Positions 1,016 to 35,544 of a DNA stretch of 35,544 bases are shown one piece after another. Made by a program: the position numbers and the translations under genes. Origin of the DNA: Candidatus Moranbacteria bacterium CG23_combo_of_CG06-09_8_20_14_all_35_22 (GTDB lineage Bacteria; Patescibacteriota; Minisyncoccia; Moranbacterales; UBA2206); assembly GCA_002772115.1 (NCBI GenBank), contig PCRW01000053.1:1-35544 (forward strand). Reading direction: 5' to 3'. Numbering within the stretch: position 1 is the first letter of the stretch; every line of letters begins with the position of its first letter. Under the pieces are notes generated by a model that worked only from the letters and a program-made list of their open reading frames with translations, did not search any database and was not told the DNA's origin.

Positions 1016-1555
1016 ATGAAAATGCAAAAAAGTAAAATTCTATATTTATTGTCTTTTCTGGTCTTAATTATTCTTGATCAACTTTCAAAATATATCGTCC
1101 GCTCCAGTGGCGGATTTTATATTTGCAATACCAATCTTGCTTTTGGCGTTAAGCCATCCTATTTTCTAGTTTTTATCCTTCTATTAGGATTGCTTCTGTT
1201 TTTATTTAAGATTGGAAATTACAAATTACAAATTACAAATTACAAAAAAATCCAAAATCCAAATAGCCAAAATTCAAAACTATGGTTTAGAAATTTAAAT
1301 TTTGAAAATTGTAATTTATTTGGAATTTGGAGCTTGAGATTTGGAATTTTATTGATTTTTTCCGGTGCAATTTCTAATATTATTGATCGCTTATCTTTCG
1401 GTTGCGTCATTGATTTCATCGATTTGCATTTTTGGCCCGCCAGCAACGCTATTAGCGTAGCTATTGCGGGCTGGCCGGTGTTCAATTTAGCCGATATTTA
1501 TATTACATTTGGTGCTATACTTATATTAATCAATTATATAAGAAGTAAGGAATAA
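1016..1555 (+). CDS. lspA: Lipoprotein signal peptidase II, carrying two in-frame repeat insertions
   Basis: LspA blocks NTNLAFG, GAISNIIDR, VIDFIDL and FNLADIYI in the usual order with hydrophobic helices. The TM2-TM3 loop and the WP..FN region are both expanded (see repeat features). Confidence 0.8.
   Translation: MKMQKSKILYLLSFLVLIILDQLSKYIVRSSGGFYICNTNLAFGVKPSYFLVFILLLGLLLFLFKIGNYKLQITNYKKIQNPNSQNSKLWFRNLNFENCNLFGIWSLRFGILLIFSGAISNIIDRLSFGCVIDFIDLHFWPASNAISVAIAGWPVFNLADIYITFGAILILINYIRSKE
1213..1350. repeat. AT-rich low-complexity / imperfect inverted-repeat module inside lspA
   Basis: (attacaa)x4, then (a)tccaaa motifs, then the complementary motifs tttgaaaattgtaattt and atttgga x3. 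Translated in frame as GNYKLQITNYKKIQNPNSQNSKLWFRNLNFENCNLFGIW. Confidence 0.6.
1438..1476. repeat. 39-bp GC-rich in-frame insertion in lspA, flanked by TGGCC direct repeats
   Basis: Deleting 1438-1476 restores CAT TTT TGG CCG GTG TTC AAT = HFWPVFN, the usual LspA W/Y-P-x-FN-x-AD block. The insert has gcccgc...gcgggc and cgct/agcg symmetry and a TGGCC copy at both junctions. Confidence 0.65.
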
Positions 1556-3213: not shown

Positions 3214-3241
3214 GTAGGGAACGCATATATGCGTTCCCTAC
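3214..3241. repeat. 28-nt perfect palindrome GTAGGGAACGCATATATGCGTTCCCTAC (GTAG...CTAC family)
   Basis: Checked by hand as its own reverse complement. Lies between the comM stop and the next start. No downstream T-run, so not a canonical intrinsic terminator. Confidence 0.7.
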
Positions 3242-4284: not shown

Positions 4285-5124
4285 ATGCCAACAAAATTAG
4301 GACAAAATTTTTTGCGTGACAATGAAGTACTGGAAAAAATAATTGCTTCGGCTGATTTGAAAGCGGATGATTTTGTGATTGAAGTCGGACCGGGCGAAGG
4401 CATGCTCACAAAAAAATTAATTGAAAATGCCGGCAAAATCTTGGCTATTGAAGTTGATGATATTCTGGCTAATAAATTAAAAAAACAATACAAAGATAGT
4501 AAAAAAATAGAAATAATAAATGCTGATATTTTGAAAATAAATTTACCAGAAATACTTAAGGTAGAGACGCAGCAGTGCTGCGTCTCTACGGGGGACAAAA
4601 TTAAATATAAAGTCGTTGCCAATATTCCATACTATATCACTTCGCCCATCATTCAACTTTTTTTAGAAACGCAGTTTCCGCCAAGTGAAATGATTTTGAT
4701 GGTGCAAAAAGAAGTGGCCGAGCGTATTTGCGTGCAAGTAGGACAAATGAGTATTCTCGCTGTGAGCGTACAATACTGTGCTAAGCCAGAACTTCTTTTT
4801 TATGTAGATAAAAAAAGTTTTTTTCCGGTGCCGAAAGTAGACAGCGCGGTGATAAAAATTACGCCGTTTCCCTCTCCTGTCGCGAGTACGCGACATCCTC
4901 TCCCTAGGGGAGAGGAGGAAAATAGAAAGAAGTTTTTTAGAATAGTTAAGGCGGGATTTTCGGCTAAAAGAAAAACACTGGTCAATAATCTTTCTAGTAG
5001 CTTAAAACTCGGAAAATATGAAGTTGAGGAAAAGTTAAAAAAAGCCGGCATTGGTCCGACTCAAAGAGCGCAAGAATTGTCAGTGGAAGATTGGAAGAAA
5101 CTAACAAATTTACTAAAATACTAA
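4285..5124 (+). CDS. rsmA: 16S rRNA (adenine1518/1519-N6)-dimethyltransferase RsmA/KsgA, with two in-frame palindromic insertions
   Basis: LGQNFLRD start, SAM motif VIEVGPGEGMLT, ANIPYYITSPII and FSAKRKTLVNNL blocks typical of KsgA. Confidence 0.9.
   Translation: MPTKLGQNFLRDNEVLEKIIASADLKADDFVIEVGPGEGMLTKKLIENAGKILAIEVDDILANKLKKQYKDSKKIEIINADILKINLPEILKVETQQCCVSTGDKIKYKVVANIPYYITSPIIQLFLETQFPPSEMILMVQKEVAERICVQVGQMSILAVSVQYCAKPELLFYVDKKSFFPVPKVDSAVIKITPFPSPVASTRHPLPRGEEENRKKFFRIVKAGFSAKRKTLVNNLSSSLKLGKYEVEEKLKKAGIGPTQRAQELSVEDWKKLTNLLKY
4561..4589. repeat. 29-nt palindrome GTAGAGACGCAGCA-G-TGCTGCGTCTCTAC inside rsmA
   Basis: 14-bp perfect arms around one central base. Translated as VETQQCCVST in a loop that is variable in KsgA. 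Same GTAG..CGCA/TGCG..CTAC design as 3214-3241. Confidence 0.7.
4871..4918. repeat. GC-rich compound hairpin inside rsmA
   Basis: gtcgcg-agta-cgcgac (4879-4894) and cctctccc-tag-gggagagg (4897-4915), plus an extra cctctcc at 4871-4877. Translated as PSPVASTRHPLPRGEEE. Much more GC-rich than its surroundings. Confidence 0.65.
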
Positions 5125-5161: not shown

Positions 5162-5275
5162 ATAGGACTTACGCGCTTGCTGTTTTAGACACTGGATGTC
5201 TCGCGACCGTAACAGCCGAAACCCGCCTGCCGGCGAGGCAGGGACATCCAGTGTCTGCAAGCACGTAAGTCCTAT
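5162..5275. terminator. Long nested hairpin between convergent rsmA and the UbiA-family gene; probable bidirectional terminator
   Basis: Three nested stems. Outer: ataggacttacg / cgtaagtcctat. Middle: gcttgc / gcaagc. Inner: 14-bp agacactggatgtc / gacatccagtgtct. A GC-rich apical hairpin sits at 5226-5242. T-rich runs flank both sides. Confidence 0.6.
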
Positions 5276-6950: not shown

Positions 6951-6981
6951 CCAGTCTAGCAAAAAAATTTGGAAAAGTACA

Positions 6982-7100
6982 GTTCACCCCCCACCACTTT
7001 TAGCTTGTAAGTTTTTTTATAAAAATGTAAGCTTAAACCTTTTGACTGACTTAATTAGTTTAATTAAAATAGGCAAAGCTAAAAGTGGTGGGGGATGAAC
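6982..7100. mobile_element. MITE-like ~119-bp element with 22-23-bp terminal inverted repeats (GTTCAyCCCCCACCACTTTTAG), copy 1
   Basis: Left end gttcaccccccaccacttttagc, right end gctaaaagtggtgggggatgaac, AT-rich 73-nt core. Its reverse complement aligns by eye at roughly 85% identity to 31136-31255. Confidence 0.7.
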
Positions 7101-7139
7101 TTATCCACAACCTGAACTTGTTTTTATATTTTTATTTTT

Positions 7140-9160: not shown

Positions 9161-9517
9161 ATGATAAAATTTTCAAAACAATACGATTTAGAAAAAAGAA
9201 CTGGAGATTTCGGCATAGAAATCATAAAATTTTGTAAAACATCTCAACAAGATATTATAACAAAACCAATCTTAAACCAACTAATAAGATCGGGAACAAG
9301 TATTGGCGCTAATTATTGCGAAGCTAATAATGCCAGTTCTAAAAAAGATTTTAAGAATAAAATTTTTATCTGTAAAAAAGAATGTCAAGAAACAAAACAT
9401 TGGCTAAGGATGTCATCAGAATGTCTGCCTGAAAGAAAAGAAGAAATAAGAATTCTCTGGAAAGAATGTCAAGAGCTTACTATGATTTTCCAAAAAATAA
9501 TAAATTCTATGCAATAA
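9161..9517 (+). CDS. Four-helix-bundle protein ('23S rRNA-intervening-sequence protein' / Avd-like family)
   Basis: 118 aa. Hallmark blocks QLIRSGTSIGANYCEANNASSKKDFKNKIFICKKECQETKHWLRM, characteristic of this family. Confidence 0.85.
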   Translation: MIKFSKQYDLEKRTGDFGIEIIKFCKTSQQDIITKPILNQLIRSGTSIGANYCEANNASSKKDFKNKIFICKKECQETKHWLRMSSECLPERKEEIRILWKECQELTMIFQKIINSMQ

Positions 9518-11781: not shown

Positions 11782-12900
11782 ATGTTAGATACTCAAACAA
11801 AAATAATTAGAAGTTGTTATTTTCCTATGATGGTTTCTAAATATACTGGGAGAGATGATTCTAGTGAAGAAATTTTAGAAAGATGGGAGAAATTTGATCT
11901 GCTTTCAGAAGATAATAAAGATTTGTTAATTTCAGAACATATAGCTATCACAATAAGAAAACTATGTTTAAATTTTTCCTTATCTATTGAATCATCAAGA
12001 AAAATTTCCCGGGCTATTCGCAGTTTTTATTTTGGAGAAATTCAACTACAAGATTTTCCGCAGATATTATCCAAAGAAATGAATGTTGATTTTGCCACGG
12101 CGCAAAAAATATCTGAAGTTATTATCCAAAAAATAATCAACGATGATTCTCAAGAAAAAGCCTACCAAGCCCAGCTGGAAAAATTACCCCTTTCCAGCGC
12201 CATTCAAAAATTCCCCCCTCTTGGCGAACAACTACTTACTTCGGCGAAAATTAAGCTAAAAAATTTCCCAGAACCGGTCCGGCCGTCGATCAATAATTGG
12301 CTTTCCGATTATACTTTTAGTCTTGGCTATGAGTCGCATAGCGCCATGGATCGTGGAACATATCTTTTTAGAAACGAAAATGCCCGACTGCTAAATTCCA
12401 TGGATCGAGAAAAGCTTTCCTATCTTTTGAAAGCTTATGATGAAAACTCACCCGTGGACATCAACATCAACACCAGCCAAATAATTTTCCCGAGACACGA
12501 AACAAGGAACAGTGAACAAGGAACAGTGAACAATATTCAAAGAACAATAAACAATGAACAACGAGCAAGAATCAATGATCAAAGAACAATAATCAACGAG
12601 CAACGAACAACGAGCAATAATAATTCTGTTTTATCGCAACCAAAATCTCCCTTTCAAGAAATATATAATGCCAAACCACAAGCAACTCAACCCAAAGATA
12701 TTTTCGAAGAAGAAAGAACAGCCACCCAAAAAAGAAACACCGCCAATTTGAGTTTCAGTTCTCCACAAAAATTTCCTTATGAAAAACAAACTATCCAACA
12801 GCAAAAAACGCCTCAAGGTCCCGAACCCTTACATATCTCCTCCCAAAAACTCCGCCATGACCCAGTCCCGCCGGGAAATGTTGTCAATTTAAAAAACTAG
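11782..12900 (+). CDS. Hypothetical cytoplasmic protein with a low-complexity Asn/Gln/Arg/Thr-rich C-terminal half
   Basis: 372-aa ORF, 10 nt after the previous stop. No TM helices and no recognised family. Confidence 0.45.
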   Translation: MLDTQTKIIRSCYFPMMVSKYTGRDDSSEEILERWEKFDLLSEDNKDLLISEHIAITIRKLCLNFSLSIESSRKISRAIRSFYFGEIQLQDFPQILSKEMNVDFATAQKISEVIIQKIINDDSQEKAYQAQLEKLPLSSAIQKFPPLGEQLLTSAKIKLKNFPEPVRPSINNWLSDYTFSLGYESHSAMDRGTYLFRNENARLLNSMDREKLSYLLKAYDENSPVDININTSQIIFPRHETRNSEQGTVNNIQRTINNEQRARINDQRTIINEQRTTSNNNSVLSQPKSPFQEIYNAKPQATQPKDIFEEERTATQKRNTANLSFSSPQKFPYEKQTIQQQKTPQGPEPLHISSQKLRHDPVPPGNVVNLKN

Positions 12901-13024
12901 GCTTTACTAAATACGAAATAAGCTAAATACTAAAAAATCCTTTCGTATTTCGTTTATTTCGTATTTGGTAAAACTTAGTATTTAGTAAAATTTAGTATTT
13001 CGTTTATTTCGTATTTAGTAAAAC
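12901..13024. repeat. 124-bp intergenic repeat unit A (tactaaatacgaaataagc family)
   Basis: The left arm tttactaaatacgaaataagctaaatactaaa pairs with tttagtatttcgtttatttcgtatttagtaaa. The unit starts right after the stop codon and ends 6 nt before the next ATG. Confidence 0.85.
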
Positions 13025-13030
13025 AATAAA

Positions 13031-13426
13031 ATGTTATTTAACGTCCCACAATTCATCGACATCGAAGATAAGATTGTTGGTCCACTTACCGCCAAGCAAC
13101 TTGGCTGGCTGGGCATTGCCGGCGTTTTGCTTTTGATTTTCTGGAGCACGCTCACTTTTTCCACTTTTCTTCCGCTGGCTTTCATCACACTGGGAATTTT
13201 TGGTGCGTTGGCATTTTACCGACCGTACAACCAACCCCTTTTGAATTTTTTGATGTCAGGCGTAAATTTTTTTCTAAAACCAAAAATCTATGTTTGGAAG
13301 CGATATTATGATAGTATGAAAGCAGTCAAAAAAACTGAAAAAACAACCGAAGAAATTATTGTCAAAAGAAAAGTTTTAGATAATAAAAAATTAGAAGAAT
13401 TGGCGAAAAGACTAAATCAGAAATAG
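13031..13426 (+). CDS. PrgI family protein (VirB3-like small T4SS membrane component)
   Basis: MLFNVPQFIDIEDKIVGPLTAKQLGWLGIAG followed by two TM helices is the characteristic PrgI-family N-terminus. Lies upstream of VirB4. Confidence 0.75.
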   Translation: MLFNVPQFIDIEDKIVGPLTAKQLGWLGIAGVLLLIFWSTLTFSTFLPLAFITLGIFGALAFYRPYNQPLLNFLMSGVNFFLKPKIYVWKRYYDSMKAVKKTEKTTEEIIVKRKVLDNKKLEELAKRLNQK

Positions 13427-13550
13427 GCTTTACTAAATACGAAATAAGCTAAATACTAAAAAATTCTTTCGTATTTCGTTTATTTCGTATTTAGTAAAAC
13501 TTAGTATTTAGTAAAATTTAGTATTTCGTTTATTTCGTATTTAGTAAAAC
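13427..13550. repeat. 124-bp intergenic repeat unit B
   Basis: Identical to unit A at 122 of 124 positions (hand alignment), in direct orientation. Confidence 0.85.
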
Positions 13551-13554
13551 ATTT

Positions 13555-14244
13555 ATGGAATTTCTACACTCAAAAAAACTCTCCACCGAACCATCATCTT
13601 CACCTACTCAAAAATATTTGGATGTAGCCGAAGTGAAAGATGATGTGATTGTTTTGAAATCGGGCGCTCTGCGTTCCATTTTGGCTGTGTCCGCTATAAA
13701 TTTTGATCTAAAATCCACTGACGAACAAGAAGCTATCATTTCTCAATATCAAAATTTTCTCAACTCCGTCGATTTTCCAGTGCAAATTTTGATCAGCTCA
13801 AGAAAATTAGATATGCGAAATTATTTTGAATTTATCACTAGCAAAGAAAAAACTCAATCTAGCGAACTTCTCCGACTTCAACTTAGCGAGTATAAAAATT
13901 TCATTGAACAATTAGTCAAGGGCTCGGATATTATGGAAAAAAATTTCTACATCATCGTGCCATTTTCACCGATTGAAAATAAAAAAAAAAGTTTTTTCTC
14001 TAACATTGGCAGTTTATGGAACCCCCAAAAAAACATTTTAGAAAAAAGAGAGAATTTTGAAACTTATAAAAATCAACTCCTCCAAAGAATTGATCACATC
14101 ATCGCCGCTTTGTCTGGCATCGGTCTGCGCATTGTTCCCCTCAAGACTGAAGAACTAATTGAATTGTTATTTGATTCATACAATCCGGAAATTTTCAACG
14201 CCACCGGATTGAAAGATGTGAGTAAATTAGAACTAACGAAATAG
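13555..14244 (+). CDS. Hypothetical T4SS-associated cytoplasmic protein (possible ATPase-less VirB4 N-domain-like protein)
   Basis: 229 aa, no TM helix and no Walker motifs. The segment YLDVAEVKDDVIVLKSGALRSILAVSAINFDLKSTDEQEAIISQYQNFLNSVDFPVQILI resembles the pattern at the N-terminus of VirB4/TrbE/TraC proteins (from memory). Confidence 0.4.
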   Translation: MEFLHSKKLSTEPSSSPTQKYLDVAEVKDDVIVLKSGALRSILAVSAINFDLKSTDEQEAIISQYQNFLNSVDFPVQILISSRKLDMRNYFEFITSKEKTQSSELLRLQLSEYKNFIEQLVKGSDIMEKNFYIIVPFSPIENKKKSFFSNIGSLWNPQKNILEKRENFETYKNQLLQRIDHIIAALSGIGLRIVPLKTEELIELLFDSYNPEIFNATGLKDVSKLELTK

Positions 14245-14352
14245 TCCTTTACTAAATACGAAATAAGCGAAATACGAAAGAATTGTTTTTTTAGTATTTA
14301 GTTTATTTAGTATTTAGTAAAATTTAGTATTTCGCTCATTTCGTAGTTCATA
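14245..14352. repeat. Intergenic repeat unit C (diverged member of the same family)
   Basis: tcctttactaaatacgaaataagcgaaatacgaaag ... tttagtatttagtaaaatttagtatttcgctcatttcgtag. Confidence 0.7.
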
Positions 14353-14360
14353 AAGAAATT

Positions 14361-16199
14361 ATGTTAAATATATTCAAAAAAAACACTCCTTCCTCCAACG
14401 CACCCGTCAAGCCGGCTAAGCCGAAAAATGAAATTTTGGAGTCGGAAAAATATTATCAAGAAGGCGTTTCTCGTCTCAATGATCTTTTGGCACCGGCTGC
14501 GATAAAAATAATGCCTAGATTTATTCGCGTGGGAGAAACTTTAGCACAAACTATTTTTGTGGTGGCTTATCCAAGATTTCTCAACAGTAATTGGTTTTCT
14601 CCCATTATAAACATTGATCTACCGATTGATATTTCAATGTTCATCCACCCCATTGAAACTTATGATATTTTGAAAGATCTCAAAAAAAATGCTACCCGTG
14701 TTGAATCCCAAATTCACATTGAACAAGAAAAAGGGATGATCAACGACCCAGCCTTGGAAACAGCCAAACAAGATATTGATGAATTGCGAAGTAATCTCCA
14801 GCAAGGCACGGAAAAGTTTTTCCGTTTTGGGCTCTACATCACTGCCTACGGTGAAAATGAAAAAGAATTATCCGACATCTCCCGTTCCATCGAAGCAATT
14901 TTGGAAGCCCAACTGGTTTATGTTAAGCCGGCCATTTTCAAATCCGAACAAGGCTTCAATTCCACTCTTCCGCTGGCAAATGACGAATTGGATATTGGAA
15001 GTAGTATGAACAGCGCTCCGCTTTCTACCACTTTCCCTTTTGTTTCTTCCACCCTTTCTTCCAATGAAGGCATTCTTTATGGCATAAATCGCCATAACAA
15101 TAGTTTGATTATTTTTGACCGTTTCAAAATGGAAAATGCCAATATGGTAGTTTTTGCTAAATCTGGTGCTGGAAAAAGTTATACGATAAAATTGGAAGTT
15201 TTGCGCTCACTAATGATGGGAACGGATGTGATCATAATTGATCCGGAAAATGAATATAAACATTTGTGCGAAACTGTCAATGGCACTTTTATAAAAATTT
15301 CCCTCAATTCTAATAATCATCTCAACCCATTTGACCTTCCGCACATCAAAGAAGACGAGGATCCTGAAGATGTCCTTCGCAACAACATCGCCAATCTTTT
15401 GGGGCTACTGCATATTATGCTGGGCAACATCACCCCCGAAGAAGATTCAATCTTGGGCCGAGCCATCAAAGAAACTTATGCTGTCCGCGACATTTCTCCT
15501 CAAACTGATTTCAATGCTCTTTCCAAAGAATCTTATCCGACAATGTCTGATTTGTATCAAATTTTGCGCAGTATGGATGGCGGAGAAAATTTGGCCATTC
15601 GAATGGAAAAATATACAGAGGGAATTTTTTCTGGCTTTCTTAATAATGTCACCAATGTGAGCGTGGACAATCAAATGATGGTTTTCAATATCCGCGATAT
15701 GGAAGAAGAACTTCGACCAATTGCGATGTATATTGTGATGCAATTTATCTGGAATGAAATGCGCACCACTCTCAAAAAAAGAATTGTCTTGGCGGATGAA
15801 GCTTGGGTAATGATGAAATATGATGACGCCGCTTCTTTTATGTTCGGTATTGCTAAACGATGTCGAAAATATTATACGGGCCTCACCACCGTCACTCAAG
15901 ATGTTAATGACTTTTTGAGTTCTCGCTATGGTAAAGCGATTGTGACAAATTCCTCTATTCAACTGCTTTTGAAACAATCACCAGCCGCTGTTGATGTCAT
16001 CAGTGAAACCTTTTACCTGACCGATCAAGAAAAATTTTTGCTTTTAGAATCAAATGTAGGAGAAGGAATTTTTTTCGCCGGCACCAAACATGTCGCCATT
16101 AAGGTTGTCGCTTCCTATTCCGAAGACCAGATAATCACCACCGATCCCTCGCAACTACTGGAAATTGAAAAAGCTAAGAAAGAGTTGGAAGAAGAATAA
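14361..16199 (+). CDS. virB4: VirB4/TrbE/PrgJ-type T4SS ATPase
   Basis: 612 aa. Walker A FAKSGAGKSYT, IIDPENEY, Walker B IVLADEAWVMM. N-terminal domain with YPRFLNSNWFSPII block as in Gram-positive VirB4 homologues. Confidence 0.9.
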   Translation: MLNIFKKNTPSSNAPVKPAKPKNEILESEKYYQEGVSRLNDLLAPAAIKIMPRFIRVGETLAQTIFVVAYPRFLNSNWFSPIINIDLPIDISMFIHPIETYDILKDLKKNATRVESQIHIEQEKGMINDPALETAKQDIDELRSNLQQGTEKFFRFGLYITAYGENEKELSDISRSIEAILEAQLVYVKPAIFKSEQGFNSTLPLANDELDIGSSMNSAPLSTTFPFVSSTLSSNEGILYGINRHNNSLIIFDRFKMENANMVVFAKSGAGKSYTIKLEVLRSLMMGTDVIIIDPENEYKHLCETVNGTFIKISLNSNNHLNPFDLPHIKEDEDPEDVLRNNIANLLGLLHIMLGNITPEEDSILGRAIKETYAVRDISPQTDFNALSKESYPTMSDLYQILRSMDGGENLAIRMEKYTEGIFSGFLNNVTNVSVDNQMMVFNIRDMEEELRPIAMYIVMQFIWNEMRTTLKKRIVLADEAWVMMKYDDAASFMFGIAKRCRKYYTGLTTVTQDVNDFLSSRYGKAIVTNSSIQLLLKQSPAAVDVISETFYLTDQEKFLLLESNVGEGIFFAGTKHVAIKVVASYSEDQIITTDPSQLLEIEKAKKELEEE

Positions 16200-16278
16200 G
16201 TTTTACTAAATACCCGCCTCGACTCGCAAGACGATTGCTCGTCGACGCGAGGCTGGCGAAATAAGCTAAATACTAAAG
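16200..16278. repeat. Left arm of repeat unit D, itself interrupted by a 44-nt GC-rich hairpin (16214-16257)
   Basis: ttttactaaatac[ccgcctcgactcgcaagacgattgctcgtcgacgcgaggctggc]gaaataagctaaatactaaag. The bracketed insert recurs at 29047-29091. Confidence 0.8.
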
Positions 16279-16665
16279 ATGATAAAGAAAATTGATTTGA
16301 TTTATGCTGATGAATGTTATGAAATAATGGGAATAGCTTTCGATGTTTTTAAGAAATTAGGATTTGGTCATAAAGAAAATATTTATCAGAAAGCGCTAGC
16401 AACTAATTTTAAAGAAAGAAATTTTAAATTTAAAGAACAGTTGCGATACAATTTGAAATACAAGGATGAAACTTTGGGAGTTTATATTTTAGATTTTTTG
16501 CTTTTTGATAAAATTGTTTTGAAAATAAAACAAAAGGATTTCATTTCTGAAAAAGATATAGATCAAGTTTATAGGTATCTTAGAGCCACGCATTTAAAGC
16601 TCGGAATAATACTTACTTTTACCAAAAAAGGTGCCTGTTTTAAAAGAATAGTTAATTTAAAATAA
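16279..16665 (+). CDS. GxxExxY family protein (PD-(D/E)XK nuclease-like superfamily)
   Basis: 128 aa. Literal motif G-HK-E-NI-Y in FGHKENIYQKAL, and YILDFLLFDKIVLKIK as in this family. Confidence 0.85.
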   Translation: MIKKIDLIYADECYEIMGIAFDVFKKLGFGHKENIYQKALATNFKERNFKFKEQLRYNLKYKDETLGVYILDFLLFDKIVLKIKQKDFISEKDIDQVYRYLRATHLKLGIILTFTKKGACFKRIVNLK

Positions 16666-17218: not shown

Positions 17219-17256
17219 TTGGAGACTAAATCTCCAATTGGAGATTTAGTCTCCAA
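17219..17256. repeat. 38-nt perfect palindrome TTGGAGACTAAATCTCCAATTGGAGATTTAGTCTCCAA, copy 1
   Basis: Verified by hand as its own reverse complement. Identical 38-mer at 23280-23317. Confidence 0.9.
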
Positions 17257-23271: not shown

Positions 23272-23325
23272 GAGACAACTTGGAGACTAAATCTCCAATT
23301 GGAGATTTAGTCTCCAAGTTGTCTC
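23272..23325. terminator. 54-nt perfect palindrome (38-mer copy 2 extended by gagacaac/gttgtctc) between convergent operons
   Basis: Lies between the stop of the + locus (23269) and the stop of the - glycan cluster (23330). No canonical U-tract, so a terminator role is inferred from position only. Confidence 0.55.
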
Positions 23326-25746: not shown

Positions 25747-25911
25747 TGAAGAATATTATTTTTGAGATTTATCCTGTTTGAGAATGTCGTATTTCTCCAA
25801 AACTTTGGCTTATCAGCTGTTGACCGGGGGCGAAAGTTTTGGCAAGAAATTCGACGGCCGAGTTACCCGCCTGCCGGCGAGGCAGGTAAACCGAAAAAAT
25901 AATATTCTTCA
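25747..25911. repeat. ~165-nt structured intergenic element (long hairpin) carrying a nested GC-rich 22-mer
   Basis: Outer stem tgaagaatattattttt / aaaaataatattcttca. Inner stem gtcgtatttctccaaaacttt / aaagttttggcaagaaattcgac. Shares the left-arm motif TTTTTGAGAnTTnTCnTGTTTGAGAA with 29127-29268. Confidence 0.65.
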
Positions 25912-29030: not shown

Positions 29031-29046
29031 AGAGTTTACGAACTAC

Positions 29047-29091
29047 CCGCCTCGACTCGCGAAGACGATTGCTCGTCGACGCGAGGCGGGC
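29047..29091. repeat. 45-nt GC-rich hairpin, second copy of the 16214-16257 element
   Basis: ccgcctcgactcgcgaagacgattgctcgtcgacgcgaggcgggc, again followed by gaaataa and preceded by ...actac. The same host-repeat context as at 16200. Confidence 0.8.
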
Positions 29092-29126
29092 GAAATAAAC
29101 GAAAATACGAAAAGTTAAAATTATAG

Positions 29127-29818: not shown

Positions 29819-30577
29819 TTAACTCTTATTTTTCTCTTTTTTCAAAACTCTCCTTTGTTGAATTATAGCAAAAACCGTAGAAACAAGCCAGTAAAGCGCC
29901 AGCCCAGCTGGAAATTTTATCCCGATAAAAAGAGTTAGGATTGGCCCAAGATACATCATTTGACGAGACATTGTTTGAGAAATATCCGGTGTGGAATTTT
30001 CTGATGGGGGGACTGCTTTGGGCATTATCATTTTCATTTGAAAATATTGCGCGCCAGCCGCTAAAAAGATCAATATCAATTGAGGAACAATCTTAATGTC
30101 TAATTGATTTAGGTTTATTGTTTTGGAAAGGTCAATAATTCCTAAAAAATATTGGTTAATTTGACCGGGATTGGAAACAAAAGAATATAATTCTTTTGGA
30201 TCAACTAGGAGTCCGGCGCTAGAAATATTGAAAAGTACCTGATAAATCGCAATTAGAAAAATAAGCTGGAAAATTGTTGGAAGACACCCTGAAAAAGGAT
30301 TGGTTTTATTTTGCTTATAAAACTCCATCAGCGCTCGACTTTGCTTTTCCTTATCATCTTTATGTTTTTTTTGAATTTCTTTGATTTTTGGTTGCATTTC
30401 CTGCATTTTTTTCTGGGATTCGATTTGTTTTTTGCTTAGTGGAATCAGCAGAAATTTCAAAACTAAAGTTACAATAATAATGGCAATACCAAAATCAGGA
30501 TAGGGAATAATATTATAAATAAAAATCAAAAAATTGTAGATTGGTCGATAAATTGTTTCCCCAAAAATAAATGACAT
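29819..30577 (-). CDS. yidC: Membrane protein insertase YidC (short, Gram-positive type)
   Basis: NPFSGCLPTIFQLIFLIAIY, PAGLALYWLVS and a basic C-terminal tail. rnpA-yidC-jag synteny. Confidence 0.9.
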   Translation of the reverse strand: MSFIFGETIYRPIYNFLIFIYNIIPYPDFGIAIIIVTLVLKFLLIPLSKKQIESQKKMQEMQPKIKEIQKKHKDDKEKQSRALMEFYKQNKTNPFSGCLPTIFQLIFLIAIYQVLFNISSAGLLVDPKELYSFVSNPGQINQYFLGIIDLSKTINLNQLDIKIVPQLILIFLAAGAQYFQMKMIMPKAVPPSENSTPDISQTMSRQMMYLGPILTLFIGIKFPAGLALYWLVSTVFAIIQQRRVLKKEKNKS

Positions 30578-30581
30578 TTTG

Positions 30582-30935
30582 TTATTTTATACTAATTATT
30601 AGTCGAGCTTTTTTCAGTGCCGAAAAAAGATCTGTTTCTAGTTTTTCACTAGAAAATTCTTTTTCCTTTGTTTTGTTTACAAAAATAACCATGTCTTGTC
30701 CTGTTTTTATTCTGTTTATGTTCTTTCTGATTATTTCTCTTAATTGCCTTTTTAGCCTATTCCTTTCCACTGCTTTAGAAGAAAATTTGATTCCAATAGA
30801 AAAACCGAAGCGACTAACTTGAACTGTATTTTTCTTTGTTTTAAGAGCAATACATCCAGAAGAAAAAAAATAGCTCGCTCGGCGGATTTCTTCAAAATCC
30901 TTTAACAAAAGCAGTCTGTTTTTTTTAGGAAGCAT
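30582..30935 (-). CDS. rnpA: Ribonuclease P protein component
   Basis: 117 aa, basic. AVERNRLKRQLREIIR motif. Immediately downstream of rpmH. Confidence 0.85.
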   Translation of the reverse strand: MLPKKNRLLLLKDFEEIRRASYFFSSGCIALKTKKNTVQVSRFGFSIGIKFSSKAVERNRLKRQLREIIRKNINRIKTGQDMVIFVNKTKEKEFSSEKLETDLFSALKKARLIISIK

Positions 30936-30944
30936 AAATTTTTA

Positions 30945-31079
30945 TTACAGAGATATCTTCTTTCGTCCTTTTTGTCTTCTTTTTTTCAAAACACATTTTC
31001 CCTTTTTTGTGCTATTTCTCTTCCTAAATCCTTGTCTTCTTTTTCTTCTTCCACTTTTTGGCTTGTAAGTTATGCTCAT
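30945..31079 (-). CDS. rpmH: 50S ribosomal protein L34
   Basis: 44-aa MSITYKPKSGRRKRRQGFRKRNSTKKGKCVLKKRRQKGRKKISL matches the L34 pattern. The longer ORF-track N-terminus (to 31151) is read-through into the MITE-like element. Confidence 0.9.
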   Translation of the reverse strand: MSITYKPKSGRRKRRQGFRKRNSTKKGKCVLKKRRQKGRKKISL

Positions 31080-31107
31080 TTTTTTATAATTAATTAATTT
31101 CATTAAA

Positions 31108-31136
31108 AGTTTACCAGTTAAAAGCCTAAAAGTCAA
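31108..31136 (-). promoter_or_regulatory. Candidate sigma70-type promoter for rpmH-rnpA-yidC-jag
   Basis: On the minus strand: TTGACT (31136-31131), a 17-nt spacer, then TAAACT (31113-31108), about 30 nt upstream of the rpmH ATG. The -35 abuts the MITE-like element. Confidence 0.35.
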
Positions 31137-31255
31137 TTCATCCCCCACCACTTTTAGGTTTGGTTATTTTGATTAAATTAATTTAGCCAATTAAATAGTT
31201 TAAGCTTATCTTTTTTACATAAAACATTACAACCTAAAAGTGGTGGGGGATGAAC
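31136..31255. mobile_element. MITE-like ~120-bp element, copy 2 (inverted relative to copy 1), in the rpmH-dnaA divergent spacer
   Basis: Ends (a)ttcatcccccaccacttttagg / cctaaaagtggtgggggatgaac. The core aligns with the reverse complement of 6982-7100. Confidence 0.7.
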
Positions 31256-31281
31256 TTACACTTCTTTTGCTAAAATTATTT

Positions 31282-31313
31282 TCATCCACATTTTATCAAC
31301 AATGTTATCCACT
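31282..31313 (+). promoter_or_regulatory. Three direct DnaA-box-like 9-mers upstream of dnaA
   Basis: TCATCCACA (31282-31290), TTATCAACA (31293-31301) and TTATCCACT (31305-31313). Each has one mismatch to TTATCCACA. Confidence 0.55.
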
Positions 31314-31357
31314 TTTCCCTTAGACTGTTTTTTAGGGTTGTGCTATACTTTTTTTAT

Positions 31358-32737
31358 ATGACTAACGAGGAGCTTTGGAAAACAGCTTTAGGAGAGATAG
31401 AGCTTTCCATTTCAAAAGCGAATTTTATTACTTGGTTTAAAAATACCTCCATTTTTTCCATAAAAGATGGCCATGTTGTTATTAGTGTGCCTAATGGTTT
31501 TGCCAAAGAATGGCTGGAAAATAAATACGACCTGTATATTCTTCGAGCGCTAAAAAACATTCAAGGTGACATTAAGTCTGTTTCTTGTTTGATTTCTACC
31601 GGACCAACCACTTTTTTTCCTCAAAAAAATTCCGAACCAGCAATTGATGCCATCCAAGCACCAAAAAAATCCTCCTTTCCACCAGAAAAAAAGCTTTTTA
31701 TAAGCCGAGAAAACAACCTTAATCCTAAATACACTTTTGATAATTTTGTTGTTGGCGGAAGCAATGAATTGGCTAAGGCCGCCTGCTATGCTGTTTCTCA
31801 AAATTTAGGCAATGTTTACAATCCACTTTTTATTTACGGCGGAGTTGGACTAGGAAAAACTCATCTTATCCAATCTATCGGTAATGAAGTATTAAAATCT
31901 AATCCGCAATTACAAATAAAATATATTTCTTCCGAACGCTTCACTAGTGAGCTAGTTGACTCCATTAAAAACCAAAAAATCAAGGAATTTAAGGAATATT
32001 ATCAAAAAATAGACCTACTTATTATTGATGACATCCAGTTTATCTCCGGCAAAGAAAAAACTCAAGAAGAATTTTTTCATATTTTCAATTATTTATACCA
32101 ACTTAATAAACAAATCATCCTTTCTAGTGATCGAGTGCCAAAAGCCATTCAAATACTAGAAGAAAGGCTTCGTTCTCGTTTTGAAGGAGGCATGATCGCC
32201 GATGTTTCCAAACCTGATTTAGAAACTAGACTGGCTATTCTCAAGAAAAAAGCCACCCAAAATAACATTGAAATTACTCCTGATGCTCTAGATTACATCG
32301 CTTCTAACATCAAAAATAATATCCGCGAATTAGAAGGAGCACTCAATAGGGTTCTAGTAAGTGCGCAATTAACAAAAAAAGTGGTTGATTTGACTTATAC
32401 AAAGCAAATATTATCTGATATTATATCCAGTGGCAAAAAAAAAGGCATTAGTTATAAACATATTCTGAAAGTGGTTTCGGATTTTTACGAAGTCAGTTTA
32501 GATGATTTAATCGCTAAAAATAGAAAACAAGAAGTAGTAAAACCGCGTCAGGTCGCAATGTTTCTTATGCGAAGTGAATTAGCTTTTTCCTATCCTGGAA
32601 TTGGCGATAAGCTTGGCGGGAGAGATCACACCACCGCTATTCATGCTTGTGCTAAAATTTTACAGGCACTGAAAAATGATGAGAAACTAAACGAGGAATT
32701 AGTCCACCTTAAAGATTTACTATATTTATTACCCTAA
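31358..32737 (+). CDS. dnaA: Chromosomal replication initiator protein DnaA
   Basis: Walker A GGVGLGKTHL, Walker B LLIIDDIQF, sensor/box VII region. C-terminal DNA-binding domain VKPRQVAMFLMR...GGRDHTTAIHA. First ATG at 31358. Confidence 0.95.
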   Translation: MTNEELWKTALGEIELSISKANFITWFKNTSIFSIKDGHVVISVPNGFAKEWLENKYDLYILRALKNIQGDIKSVSCLISTGPTTFFPQKNSEPAIDAIQAPKKSSFPPEKKLFISRENNLNPKYTFDNFVVGGSNELAKAACYAVSQNLGNVYNPLFIYGGVGLGKTHLIQSIGNEVLKSNPQLQIKYISSERFTSELVDSIKNQKIKEFKEYYQKIDLLIIDDIQFISGKEKTQEEFFHIFNYLYQLNKQIILSSDRVPKAIQILEERLRSRFEGGMIADVSKPDLETRLAILKKKATQNNIEITPDALDYIASNIKNNIRELEGALNRVLVSAQLTKKVVDLTYTKQILSDIISSGKKKGISYKHILKVVSDFYEVSLDDLIAKNRKQEVVKPRQVAMFLMRSELAFSYPGIGDKLGGRDHTTAIHACAKILQALKNDEKLNEELVHLKDLLYLLP

Positions 32738-35476: not shown

Positions 35477-35533
35477 TAAATAGTGTGGTGGATAACTAAA
35501 GAAGTGGTAGGATTTAAGTGCTTAAACATTAAA

Positions 35534-35544
35534 CCCCCACCACC
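35534..35544. repeat. Probable start of a third MITE-like element copy, cut by the window edge
   Basis: cccccaccac, the core of the element's terminal inverted repeat, is a GC-rich 10-mer in an AT-rich context. Confidence 0.4.

What the first reader, a model, noticed from the sequence alone, without database searches (positions are those of the whole stretch)
4561..4918. In-frame palindromic element insertions inside the essential rRNA methyltransferase gene rsmA (RPE-like behaviour)
**Seen.** Two GC-rich palindromic blocks are read through in frame.
- 4561-4589: 14-bp perfect arms, translated VETQQCCVST.
- 4871-4918: compound hairpin, translated PSPVASTRHPLPRGEEE.

Both fall where KsgA proteins have variable loops: between the 'DxL..' strand and the NxPYxI motif, and just before the FxxRRK block (from memory of the family). 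The first block has the same GTAG-purine-GA..CGCA / TGCG..TC-pyrimidine-CTAC design as the intergenic 28-nt palindrome at 3214-3241.

**Established.** Rickettsia palindromic elements are known to insert in frame into protein-coding genes.

**Inference.** An analogous, apparently independent class of coding-tolerant palindromic elements operates in this genome.
Basis: partly seen in the sequence, partly recalled or inferred. Interest (0 to 1): 0.7.

Follow-up and report, generated by a model that had tools for sequence, protein, structure and literature searches.

The report
REP-type palindromes translated inside rsmA
Two short GC-rich DNA hairpins sit in frame inside the rRNA methyltransferase gene of an ultra-small (Moranbacteria-like) bacterium; the first belongs to a widespread repeat family linked to a hairpin-specific transposase, so this is a known phenomenon (repeats tolerated inside genes) in a new host and an unusual form.

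Summary
4561-4589 is a perfect 14-bp-arm palindrome read as VETQQCCVST, and 4870-4920 is a compound hairpin read as PSPVASTRHPLPRGEEE. Both lie inside an intact rsmA gene (4285-5124).

Close syntenic orthologues have short AT-rich loops at both places, or carry other palindromes there. At least five palindrome families occupy these two loops across 119 Moranbacteria-type RsmA proteins.

Block 1 belongs to a very abundant family, GTAGAGACG-variable stem-CGTCTCTAC:
- Two collection scans each stopped at their 120-stretch limit.
- The inner stem covaries: 121 of 125 copies are fully complementary.
- About half the copies lie in frame inside real genes (LigA, iPGM, ComEC and others).
- Copies flank, and sit inside, RAYT-like HUH tyrosine transposase genes. 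Close homologues of these are annotated in Moranbacteria and Patescibacteria MAGs.

Block 1 is therefore a REP/RAYT-type element, not an independent class. In-frame intragenic REPs were already described in 2013.

Block 2 belongs to a second, untagged hairpin family that appears in either loop in other lineages.

New points are the CPR host, the symmetric GTAG...CTAC form, the high intragenic share, and REPs inside the RAYT genes themselves. Translation and transposition are inferred, not shown.

The parts
4285..5124 (+). rsmA/ksgA coding sequence (279 aa) that hosts both blocks
   Evidence: ORF. Pfam RrnaAD E = 1.4e-56. PDB KsgA E = 1.7e-44. AlphaFold/Foldseek TM 0.85 to 6IFT. All family-invariant motifs are intact. 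The exact protein was found on 19 contigs from several samples.
4561..4589 (.). Block 1: a 29-nt symmetric GTAG...CTAC palindrome (REP-type), GTAGAGACGCAGCA-G-TGCTGCGTCTCTAC, read as VETQQCCVST
   Evidence: The same palindrome occurs at the same site in L081, L083, L214 and L215, with two compensatory stem changes. Family census.
4552..4605 (+). Site-1 loop (ILKVETQQCCVSTGDKIK, residues 90-107), between strand DILKINL and YKVVANIPYY. The empty form in orthologues is about 9 aa (IIKNNNFQK).
   Evidence: Model pLDDT is 70-73 here, against more than 90 in the core.
4870..4920 (+). Block 2: compound GC-rich hairpin element read as PSPVASTRHPLPRGEEE, in the linker between the Rossmann domain and the C-terminal domain
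   Evidence: Shared with L081 and L087, where differences are confined to loops. Absent from L083, L086 and L089. The same peptide family occurs at site 1 in other orthologues and at both sites in P0020 and L065. Residues 199-209 have pLDDT below 50.
4879..4894 (.). Inner small hairpin of block 2: GTCGCG-AGTA-CGCGAC
4896..4916 (.). 9-bp hairpin of block 2: TCCTCTCCC-TAG-GGGAGAGGA
   Evidence: The stem is kept and the loop varies in L081 (CAA) and L087.
3214..3241 (.). Intergenic 28-nt GTAG...CTAC palindrome, 10 nt after the comM-like stop codon
   Evidence: -23.2 kcal/mol, z = -7.2. Absent from the orthologous spacer in L081, L083, L084 and L087; a related palindrome is present in L213. A GTAGGGAACG...CGTTCCCTAC pattern matched 10 stretches in viral contigs (these hits were not inspected further).
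1436..1474 (+). A further in-frame GC-rich hairpin insert (39 nt, PASNAISVAIAGW) in lspA, flanked by a TGGCC direct repeat
   Evidence: Absent from the LspA of L081, L083, L084, L087 and L088.
5166..5275 (.). 110-nt GC-rich inverted repeat between the convergent rsmA and ubiA genes. Its centre (5226-5242) is a CCTGCCGGCGAGGCAGG palindrome.
   Evidence: -66 kcal/mol, z = -9.9. Absent from the same spacer in L081.
25870..25886 (.). Intergenic copy of the CCTGCCGGCGAGGCAGG palindrome family. The same family lies in frame in L086 rsmA site 1 and in L083 lspA.

Best explanation
**What block 1 is.** Block 1 is a copy of a widespread REP-type element. It is a 28-29-nt hairpin with a fixed outer stem (GTAGAGACG/CGTCTCTAC) and a variable but always complementary inner stem.

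**How its family spreads (inferred).** The family is associated with RAYT-like HUH tyrosine transposases. These enzymes recognise a GTAG-tagged hairpin in single-stranded DNA. Copying by such an enzyme is inferred from the gene association, not shown.

**What block 2 is.** Block 2 is a copy of a second, untagged compound-hairpin family (CCTCTCC...GGAGAGG type). What mobilises it is unknown.

**Why copies survive inside rsmA.** Copies land anywhere. Inside genes, only those survive that keep the reading frame, avoid the one frame containing TAG, and fall in loops able to carry 7-10 extra residues. RsmA has two such loops: after strand beta4, and in the inter-domain linker. In Moranbacteria these loops have been occupied repeatedly by different families. 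The hairpins are then read through and translated as disordered loop peptides (inferred from reading-frame conservation).

**What keeps the stems.** The stems are kept at the nucleotide level, independently of the peptide. The cause is either continued recognition or conversion by the element's machinery, or selection on the hairpin itself.
For: **Lineage-specific insertions.**
- In a codon alignment of eight syntenic orthologues, L084 and L089 are empty at site 1, and L083, L086 and L089 are empty at site 2.
- The other orthologues carry GGA-N9-TCC-ATTAT, CCTGCC..GGCAGG, CCTCTCC..GGAGAGG or CCCCTT..AAGGGG palindromes at these sites.
- Across 119 homologues the site-1 loop spans 6-51 aa and the site-2 loop 13-41 aa, with recurring element-encoded peptides scattered over the tree.
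- The same element occupies both loops in L065 and in P0020.

**Block 1 belongs to a family.**
- Both scans stopped at their limit of 120 stretches.
- 132 of 150 viral-contig copies are exactly 28 nt, and their flanks are not conserved.
- 121 of 125 metagenome copies have fully complementary inner stems. 17 of the 21 non-majority copies are compensated.

**Transposase link.**
- L332, L225 and L238 carry full-length HUH/Tyr transposase genes with the palindrome just upstream (1-20 nt before the start codon) and one copy inside, in frame. In L332 another copy, preceded by tandem 19-nt half-sites, lies downstream of the gene.
- L229, L239, L285 and L326 show the same internal copy or the adjoining C-terminal gene fragment.
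- NCBIfam REP_Tyr_transpos gives E = 1e-13 to 7e-17, and the best PDB hit is TnpA-REP 4ER8.
- Homologues are annotated RayT. They include MAG proteins labelled Candidatus Moranbacteria, Patescibacteria and Pacebacteria; P0190 carries the window-type VETQQCCVST.

**Tolerated in coding sequence.**
- 67 of 125 copies lie inside ORFs of at least 100 aa, and 35 inside ORFs of at least 300 aa. Both open frames are used.
- Mid-gene hosts include LigA, iPGM, ComEC, Wzy_C, PMT_2 and a radical SAM gene.
- lspA in this window carries another in-frame hairpin.

**Constraint at the nucleotide level.**
- The outer stems are identical in the window, L081, L083, L214 and L215, although identity at 4-fold sites is only 0.39-0.58.
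- The stem codons GAG, ACG and GTC are rare in this genome (12-15%).
- The window and L083 differ by two compensatory pair changes. The ComEC orthologues L295 and L311 show the same pair of variants at one site.

**Permissive loops.** Both blocks fall in the lowest-confidence parts of the model (pLDDT 70-73, and below 50).
Against: - No RAYT gene lies in the 35.5-kb window, and the rest of this genome could not be read.
- GTAG copies are sparse locally: 2 in the window, and none outside rsmA in about 130 kb of syntenic relatives.
- No clean empty site or target duplication defines the site-1 insertion. The net gain is 27 nt for a 29-nt palindrome.
- The site-1 palindrome is shared with relatives down to 65% protein identity. 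It is therefore old, or it has been replaced repeatedly; I could not tell which.
- The RAYT-like proteins score below NCBIfam's curated cut-off (51-62 bits against 80).
- Genes next to copies in phage contigs show no transposase.
- Block 2 has no identified mobilising enzyme.
- Translation of the inserts is not shown.
Confidence: 0.75

Rival explanations
1. The hairpins are functional cis-elements kept by selection for the host. Possible roles are mRNA stabilisers, RNase processing sites, transcription or translation pause sites, or DNA binding sites. On this view they happen to sit in coding sequence because intergenic space is scarce in these compact genomes. This is not exclusive of a mobile origin.
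For: - The stems are conserved at rare codons far beyond synonymous-site identity.
- Stem changes are compensatory, while substitutions accumulate in loops.
- Predicted folds are strong.
- 64 of 120 RAYT homologues keep a palindrome at one fixed place in their own gene.
Against: - Close orthologues have nothing at the same loops, or carry unrelated palindromes there.
- The same 29-mer lies in dozens of unrelated genes and spacers, with unconserved flanks and no following T-run.
- No position is shared relative to gene starts or ends.
Confidence: 0.15
2. The palindromes arose in place, by template switching or quasi-palindrome correction during replication, and are not copies of anything.
For: - Perfect symmetry and compensatory changes are what strand-switch repair produces.
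- Tandem half-site duplications occur next to some copies.
Against: - Identical 29-mers occur in more than 100 unrelated contexts and flank a dedicated transposase.
- The blocks are GC-rich in a 35% GC gene.
- The same compound element appears in two different loops of one gene.
Confidence: 0.04
3. The blocks are removed or skipped before the protein is made (RNA-level excision or translational bypass), or the gene is a pseudogene or an assembly artefact.
For: Strong hairpins inside an ORF could in principle promote bypass. There are no protein-level data.
Against: - The exact protein is encoded on 19 contigs from independent samples.
- All catalytic motifs and the C-terminal domain stay in frame, and the gene is under purifying selection: 88% protein identity against 0.58 identity at 4-fold sites with L081.
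- Every site-1 and site-2 variant in the sequenced orthologues keeps the reading frame through to the conserved C-terminal domain.
Confidence: 0.03

Closest known systems
GTAG-tagged REP elements and their RAYT transposases (REPtrons, REPINs): Di Nocera et al. 2013 (PMC3733652); Bertels & Rainey 2011 (PMC3116915)
   Same: - A short GC-rich stem-loop with a terminal GTAG.
- Sub-families that differ by complementary stem changes.
- Dispersed in many copies.
- Copies flank an HUH/Tyr transposase gene.
- Some copies lie in frame inside genes. The 2013 paper lists DNA repair genes, tRNA pseudouridine synthase, and different REPs located at about the same site in the recB genes of two Xanthomonas species.
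   Different: - Here the tag is on both ends and base-pairs (GTAG...CTAC), so the element is identical on both strands.
- About half of the sampled copies are intragenic, rather than a minority.
- The host is a CPR/Patescibacteria lineage, which the 2013 paper does not list. Searches of the held library returned nothing on REP or RAYT in CPR.
- The transposase genes themselves carry a copy in frame.
Rickettsia palindromic elements (RPE)
   Same: Palindromic repeats inserted in frame into genes that still encode working proteins. The extra peptide is tolerated in permissive regions (as summarised in PMC3733652).
   Different: - RPE-1 is much longer (about 100-150 bp, from memory). According to PMC3733652, RPE-4 and RPE-6 are CGTC-tagged REPs with no known transposase.
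- The elements here are 29 nt and about 51 nt, in a different phylum. Block 1 is GTAG-tagged and linked to a RAYT.
- Sequence similarity to RPEs was not tested.
MITEs (for example Nezha and Correia/NEMIS elements)
   Same: Non-autonomous, hairpin-forming, dispersed elements that can lie close to or within genes.
   Different: MITEs are 70-300 bp with terminal inverted repeats and target-site duplications. Block 1 is a bare 29-nt hairpin with no conserved flanks. The 110-nt element at 5166-5275 is closer to a MITE.

Membership tests
GTAG-tagged REP / RAYT system | Short (20-40 bp) palindromic stem-loop | tested here: met
   29 nt with 14-bp arms. Family copies are 28-29 nt.
GTAG-tagged REP / RAYT system | Terminal GTAG tetranucleotide | tested here: met
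   GTAG is at the 5' end on both strands.
GTAG-tagged REP / RAYT system | The tag is unpaired and present at one end only (definition in PMC3733652) | tested here: not met
   GTAG is complementary to the CTAC at the other end, so the element is fully symmetric. For this reason I file it as a variant, not a plain member.
GTAG-tagged REP / RAYT system | Many dispersed copies | tested here: inconclusive
   Met in public collections: at least 120 stretches in each of two scans, both stopped at the limit. In this genome only 2 GTAG copies were seen in 35.5 kb, and the rest of the genome could not be read.
GTAG-tagged REP / RAYT system | Sub-families with alternative complementary stem residues | tested here: met
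   121 of 125 copies are fully complementary across the AG/CT, CA/TG and CG/CG variants. The window and L083 differ by two compensated pairs.
GTAG-tagged REP / RAYT system | Copies flank a RAYT gene (REPtron) | tested here: met
   Met for the family. L332, L225 and L238 have the palindrome just upstream of the transposase gene, and L332 also has one downstream. Not testable for this genome: there is no RAYT in the window.
GTAG-tagged REP / RAYT system | The associated protein is a RAYT (HUH motif, catalytic Tyr region, RAYT-specific profile) | tested here: inconclusive
   HUH (HxHGI) and WQxRFYDHIIR motifs are present. NCBIfam NF047646 gives E = 1e-13 to 7e-17 but 51-62 bits, below the 80-bit cut-off. 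Pfam Y1_Tnp reaches at most 29.5 bits. The best PDB hit is 4ER8 at E = 0.06. JGI names homologues RayT.
GTAG-tagged REP / RAYT system | Predominantly extragenic | tested here: not met
   67 of 125 metagenome copies lie inside ORFs of at least 100 aa, and 35 inside ORFs of at least 300 aa. In viral contigs 40 of 124 do.
Rickettsia palindromic elements (RPE) | In-frame insertion into genes that stay functional | tested here: met
   The behaviour is met: the frame and all motifs are kept. Function of the protein was not tested.
Rickettsia palindromic elements (RPE) | Sequence membership of an RPE family in a Rickettsia genome | not tested
   No RPE sequences were compared. The closest named MAG proteins and contigs are Candidatus Moranbacteria or Parcubacteria.
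MITE | 70-300 bp, terminal inverted repeats, target-site duplication | tested here: not met
   Block 1 is 29 nt and its flanks are unconserved. No duplication could be defined at site 1.
Intrinsic terminator | GC-rich hairpin followed by a run of T | tested here: not met
   No T-run follows 4589, 4916 or 3241. The flanks of 94 family copies show no T enrichment.
RsmA/KsgA (host gene) | RrnaAD domain, SAM-binding GxGxG, NxPY motif, C-terminal domain, KsgA fold | tested here: met

The most novel reading that the evidence does not exclude
In CPR bacteria the REP/RAYT system may not be mere junk filtered by selection. The hairpins could be maintained inside coding sequence on purpose. Three observations point that way. 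The stems are held at rare codons through compensatory change. About half of the sampled copies are intragenic. Most RAYT genes of this clade keep their own hairpin in frame right after the HUH motif. Together these would fit a domesticated hairpin-plus-nuclease system, for example self-regulation of the RAYT or a replication- or repair-coupled role, that uses protein loops as parking sites in genomes with almost no intergenic space.
Probability: 0.15. Interest if true: 0.8.

Novelty: new variant of a known kind. Interest (0 to 1): 0.55.

Why it matters
- It extends REP/RAYT biology to the Candidate Phyla Radiation. Searches of the held paper library returned nothing on REP or RAYT in these lineages.
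- It shows that in these very compact genomes a large share of copies are carried inside genes, including conserved housekeeping genes (rsmA, lspA, ligA, comEC, the iPGM gene).
- It explains a practical nuisance: recurrent odd peptides (VETRxCLVST, RDEAxPRLY, HPLPKGEE, HSERSE...) and length variation in CPR proteins. These can distort alignments, phylogenies and structure predictions.
- The two RsmA loops provide a natural map of positions that tolerate insertions.
- REPs embedded in the RAYT genes themselves offer a testable handle on how these domesticated transposases are controlled.

Tried and rejected
- **Genome-contig scan with RsmA.** Close orthologues had to be fetched one at a time.
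- **GTAG...CTAC palindromes in all loci fetched by then.** Almost none were found outside rsmA, so a local family could not be shown from neighbouring DNA.
- **Literature search for the sequence itself.** Only primer coincidences turned up.
- **Pfam scan of 150 genes next to family copies in phage contigs.** It found ordinary phage genes and no transposase. The RAYT link appeared only in the metagenome scan.
- **Terminator idea.** Rejected: no T-run follows the hairpins.
- **Site 2 as KsgA 'loop12', the rRNA-contacting specificity loop.** Rejected. The 6IFX chimera shows that loop12 is the AERxxxxG..S segment. That is the third insertion site, seen only in L087/P0004.
- **Target-site duplication at site 1.** It could not be defined, because the flanking loop codons differ between filled and empty orthologues.
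- **'RAYT' plus 'Patescibacteria' literature searches.** Nothing relevant was found.
Full report
**1. The observation**

The window is AT-rich (about 35% GC). Its genes and closest relatives point to a Moranbacteria/Parcubacteria-type CPR bacterium.

The ORF 4285..5124 encodes a 279-aa RsmA/KsgA. The evidence is Pfam RrnaAD at E = 1.4e-56, B. subtilis KsgA at E = 1.7e-44, and an AlphaFold model (mean pLDDT 85.5) that superposes on 6IFT with TM 0.85.

- **Block 1** is exactly as described. Positions 4561-4589 read GTAGAGACGCAGCA-G-TGCTGCGTCTCTAC, with perfect 14-bp arms, and translate as VETQQCCVST.
- **Block 2** spans codons 4870-4920 (PSPVASTRHPLPRGEEE). It contains the hairpin GTCGCG-AGTA-CGCGAC and the hairpin TCCTCTCCC-TAG-GGGAGAGGA.

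The predicted RNA folds are -24.3 kcal/mol (z = -5.6) and -29.1 kcal/mol (z = -4.3). The window holds five perfect hairpins with arms of at least 12 bp, whereas shuffles give about 0.1. The exact protein is encoded on 19 contigs from independent samples, so this is not an assembly accident.

**2. Are the blocks insertions?**

I fetched the syntenic locus (comM-like, G5/DPBB, rsmA, ubiA) from ten further relatives with 63-88% RsmA identity. I then aligned the genes codon by codon.

Site 1:

| Locus | State at site 1 |
|---|---|
| L084, L089 | Short AT-rich loop (..ATA AAA AAT AAT AAT TTT CAA AAA TAT..; IIKNNNFQK) |
| Window, L081, L083, L215, L214 | The GTAG palindrome; L214 carries a split, duplicated form |
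| L086 | CTGCCTGCCGGTAGGCA |
| L087 | GGACATTCGATGTCC-ATTAT-GGACATCGAATGTCC |
| L088 | A CCTCTCC..GGAGAAGG hairpin |
| L213 | A 100-nt GC-rich hairpin (-56 kcal/mol) |

Site 2:

| Locus | State at site 2 |
|---|---|
| L083, L086, L089 | AT-rich ISKINNQQIINNKEE |
| Window, L081, L087 | Block 2 |
| L084 | GGAAGCTCAGCTTCC-ATTAT-GGAAGCTGAGCTTCC |
| L088 | CCCCTT..AAGGGG |

Across 119 homologues the site-1 loop ranges from 6 to 51 aa and the site-2 loop from 13 to 41 aa. Recurring element-encoded peptides are scattered over the tree.

The block-2 peptide family (PSPVxSTRHPLPxGEE) occurs at site 1 in other lineages. It occurs at both sites in P0020 and in L065, where two copies of about 62 nt are nearly identical at the DNA level.

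Compared with B. subtilis KsgA, the window protein has 5 extra residues at site 1 and 9 at site 2. Both blocks coincide with the least confident parts of the model: pLDDT 70-73 at site 1, and below 50 for residues 199-209. All family-invariant motifs are intact.

The segments are therefore lineage-specific additions in variable loops. They are not tidy insertions, however. The net gains are 27 nt and 21 nt, and neighbouring loop codons differ as well.

**3. What is block 1?**

- **Viral contigs.** A scan for GTAGAGACG-N5-15-CGTCTCTAC stopped at its 120-stretch limit. Of 150 copies, 132 are exactly 28 nt. The inner stem varies but stays palindromic. The flanks are unconserved and show no T-run.
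- **Metagenomes.** A scan for the 29-nt sub-family also stopped at its limit. It gave 125 distinct copies:
  - 104 have the AG/CT inner stem, as in L083, L214 and L215.
  - 14 have the CA/TG stem, as in the window.
  - 3 have CG/CG.
  - Only 4 are not fully complementary.
- **Transposase genes.** In L332, L225 and L238 the palindrome lies 1-20 nt upstream of, and once inside, a gene of about 190-220 aa with an HUH motif (HxHGI) and a WQxRFYDHIIR tyrosine region. L229, L239, L285 and L326 show the same internal copy or the adjoining C-terminal gene fragment. In L332 the upstream and downstream copies are accompanied by tandem 19-nt half-sites.
- **Protein identity.** These proteins match NCBIfam 'REP-associated tyrosine transposase' at E = 1e-13 to 7e-17, which is below the curated cut-off. 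They match Pfam Y1_Tnp weakly, and their best PDB hit is E. coli TnpA-REP (4ER8).
- **Hosts.** Their homologues are labelled RayT by JGI. They include MAG proteins named Candidatus Moranbacteria, Patescibacteria and Pacebacteria. The Pacebacteria protein (P0190) carries the window's own variant, VETQQCCVST.

GTAG-tagged REPs, their RAYT association, sub-families with complementary stem changes, and REPs located inside genes are all described by Di Nocera et al. 2013 (PMC3733652). Block 1 is thus a REP-type element and not a separate class.

It departs from the published definition in one tested respect. The GTAG is not an unpaired tag at one end. It pairs with a CTAC at the other end, which makes the element symmetric.

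**4. Tolerance in coding sequence**

- Of the 125 metagenome copies, 67 lie inside ORFs of at least 100 aa and 35 inside ORFs of at least 300 aa. Both open frames are used: VETRxCLVST and RDEAxPRLY.
- Ten mid-gene hosts were scanned against Pfam. Nine were identified: NAD-dependent DNA ligase, iPGM, two ComEC, two Wzy_C, two PMT_2 and a radical SAM protein.
- In this window, lspA carries a different 39-nt hairpin in frame (1436-1474, PASNAISVAIAGW). It is flanked by a TGGCC repeat and absent from five orthologues. The L083 lspA carries a CCTGCCGGCGAGGCAGG copy in another loop.
- Among the syntenic genes, only rsmA (265-317 aa) and lspA (131-179 aa) vary much in length.

**5. Nucleotide-level maintenance**

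Identity at 4-fold sites between the window's rsmA and its orthologues is only 0.58 (L081), 0.57 (L083), 0.39 (L214) and 0.43 (L215). Even so, the 18 outer-stem bases are identical in all of them. They use codons that are rare in this genome: GAG 13%, ACG 12%, GTC 15%.

The window and L083 differ at two stem pairs, and both are compensated (C-G to A-T, and A-T to G-C). This changes the peptide from QQCC to RHCL. Two ComEC orthologues show the same two variants at one site.

In block 2, the differences between the window, L081 and L087 fall in the loop of the 9-bp hairpin.

Whatever preserves these sequences acts on the pairing, not on the peptide. I cannot distinguish among three causes: selection on the hairpin, replacement by other family copies, or strand-symmetric repair.

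**6. Mechanism**

*Shown:*
- The blocks are members of repeated hairpin families.
- They occupy two permissive loops that have been occupied many times.
- The block-1 family is physically associated with RAYT-like genes, which occur in MAGs labelled Moranbacteria.

*Inferred:*
- Copying by a RAYT acting on single-stranded hairpins.
- Survival only of in-frame, stop-free copies in tolerant loops.
- Translation of the inserts.

*Unknown:*
- What mobilises block 2.
- Whether this genome has a RAYT; none is in the window.
- How many independent insertions occurred.

**7. Comparison and novelty**

The behaviour matches RPEs and the intragenic REPs of Opitutus terrae, Rickettsia, Xanthomonas and others. 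In-frame residence of palindromic repeats in conserved genes is therefore already known.

The differences are:
- the CPR host, for which searches of the held library returned nothing on REP or RAYT;
- the symmetric, doubly tagged form;
- the high intragenic share;
- the repeated use of the same two RsmA loops by at least five families;
- the presence of a palindrome-encoded peptide in 64 of 120 RAYT homologues, in frame between the HUH and Tyr motifs, often with tandem half-site duplications.

I rate this a new variant of a known kind, of moderate interest.

**8.

- KsgA 'loop12', which contacts rRNA, is not site 2. It corresponds to a third site (AERIC...GQMSIL) that carries a 33-aa insert only in L087/P0004.
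- KsgA is conserved but not strictly essential in E. coli (my own knowledge).

Noticed in passing
window 1436-1474 (in lspA, 1016..1555): A 39-nt GC-rich hairpin is inserted in frame in signal peptidase II (PASNAISVAIAGW). It is flanked by a TGGCC direct repeat and absent from five orthologues. The same gene also holds an in-frame AT-rich AAATTAC tandem repeat near 1216-1247.
   Followed up: partly
window 5166-5275: A 110-nt GC-rich inverted repeat (-66 kcal/mol, z = -9.9) sits between the convergent rsmA and ubiA genes and is absent from the same spacer in L081. It looks like a MITE, with a nested CCTGCCGGCGAGGCAGG palindrome at 5226-5242.
   Followed up: partly
window 16210-16266 and 29037-29101: Two intergenic copies of a roughly 47-nt palindrome (CCCGCCTCGACTCGCGAAGACGATTGCTCGTCGACGCGAGGCGGGCG), each followed by AAATAA. 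The first lies just upstream of a PDDEXK_3 gene (16279-16665).
   Followed up: no
window 9161-9517; L081 14035-14409; L083 14136-14519 and 18295-18687; L086 8610-8990: Small 23S_rRNA_IVP (four-helix-bundle) and PDDEXK_3 genes occupy different positions in an otherwise syntenic type IV secretion-like gene block in close relatives. They behave as small mobile genes.
   Followed up: no
L332 1-830; P0121-P0240: RAYT-like genes of this clade carry their own REP in frame just after the HUH motif: 64 of 120 homologues contain a palindrome-encoded peptide there. Tandem half-site duplications are common (for example DEAVPDEAVPDEAVP). In L332 the gene is flanked by the palindrome plus three tandem 19-nt half-sites.
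   Followed up: partly
L295 2239-2267 and L311 1213-1241: Two ComEC orthologues carry the CA/TG and AG/CT stem variants of the 29-nt palindrome at the same site. This is the same compensatory pattern as in rsmA.
   Followed up: partly
L087 (P0004) rsmA, between AERICASP and GQMSIL: A third insertion site. A 33-aa, mostly AT-rich insert is bounded by the inverted repeat CACCCCGTGGAATA...TATTCCACGGGG. It falls in KsgA loop12, which contacts h45 and h27 of 16S rRNA.
   Followed up: partly
window 6981-7101, 31132-31259, 35514-35544: Inverted repeats share a CCCCCACCACTTTTAG core. One of them lies in the spacer upstream of dnaA.
   Followed up: no
window 17219-17256 and 23272-23325: Perfect AT-richer palindromes built on TTGGAGACTAAATCTCCAA lie between genes. 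The second has 27-nt arms.
   Followed up: no
window 29819-32737: yidC, rnpA and dnaA are clustered here, and the cumulative GC skew reaches its minimum near 32-33 kb. The window probably spans the replication origin.
   Followed up: no
window 12892-13563 and 14247-14391: Clusters of AT-rich inverted and direct repeats (TTTACTAAATACGAAATAAGCTAAATACTAAA) surround the PrgI-like and TraC-like genes.
   Followed up: no
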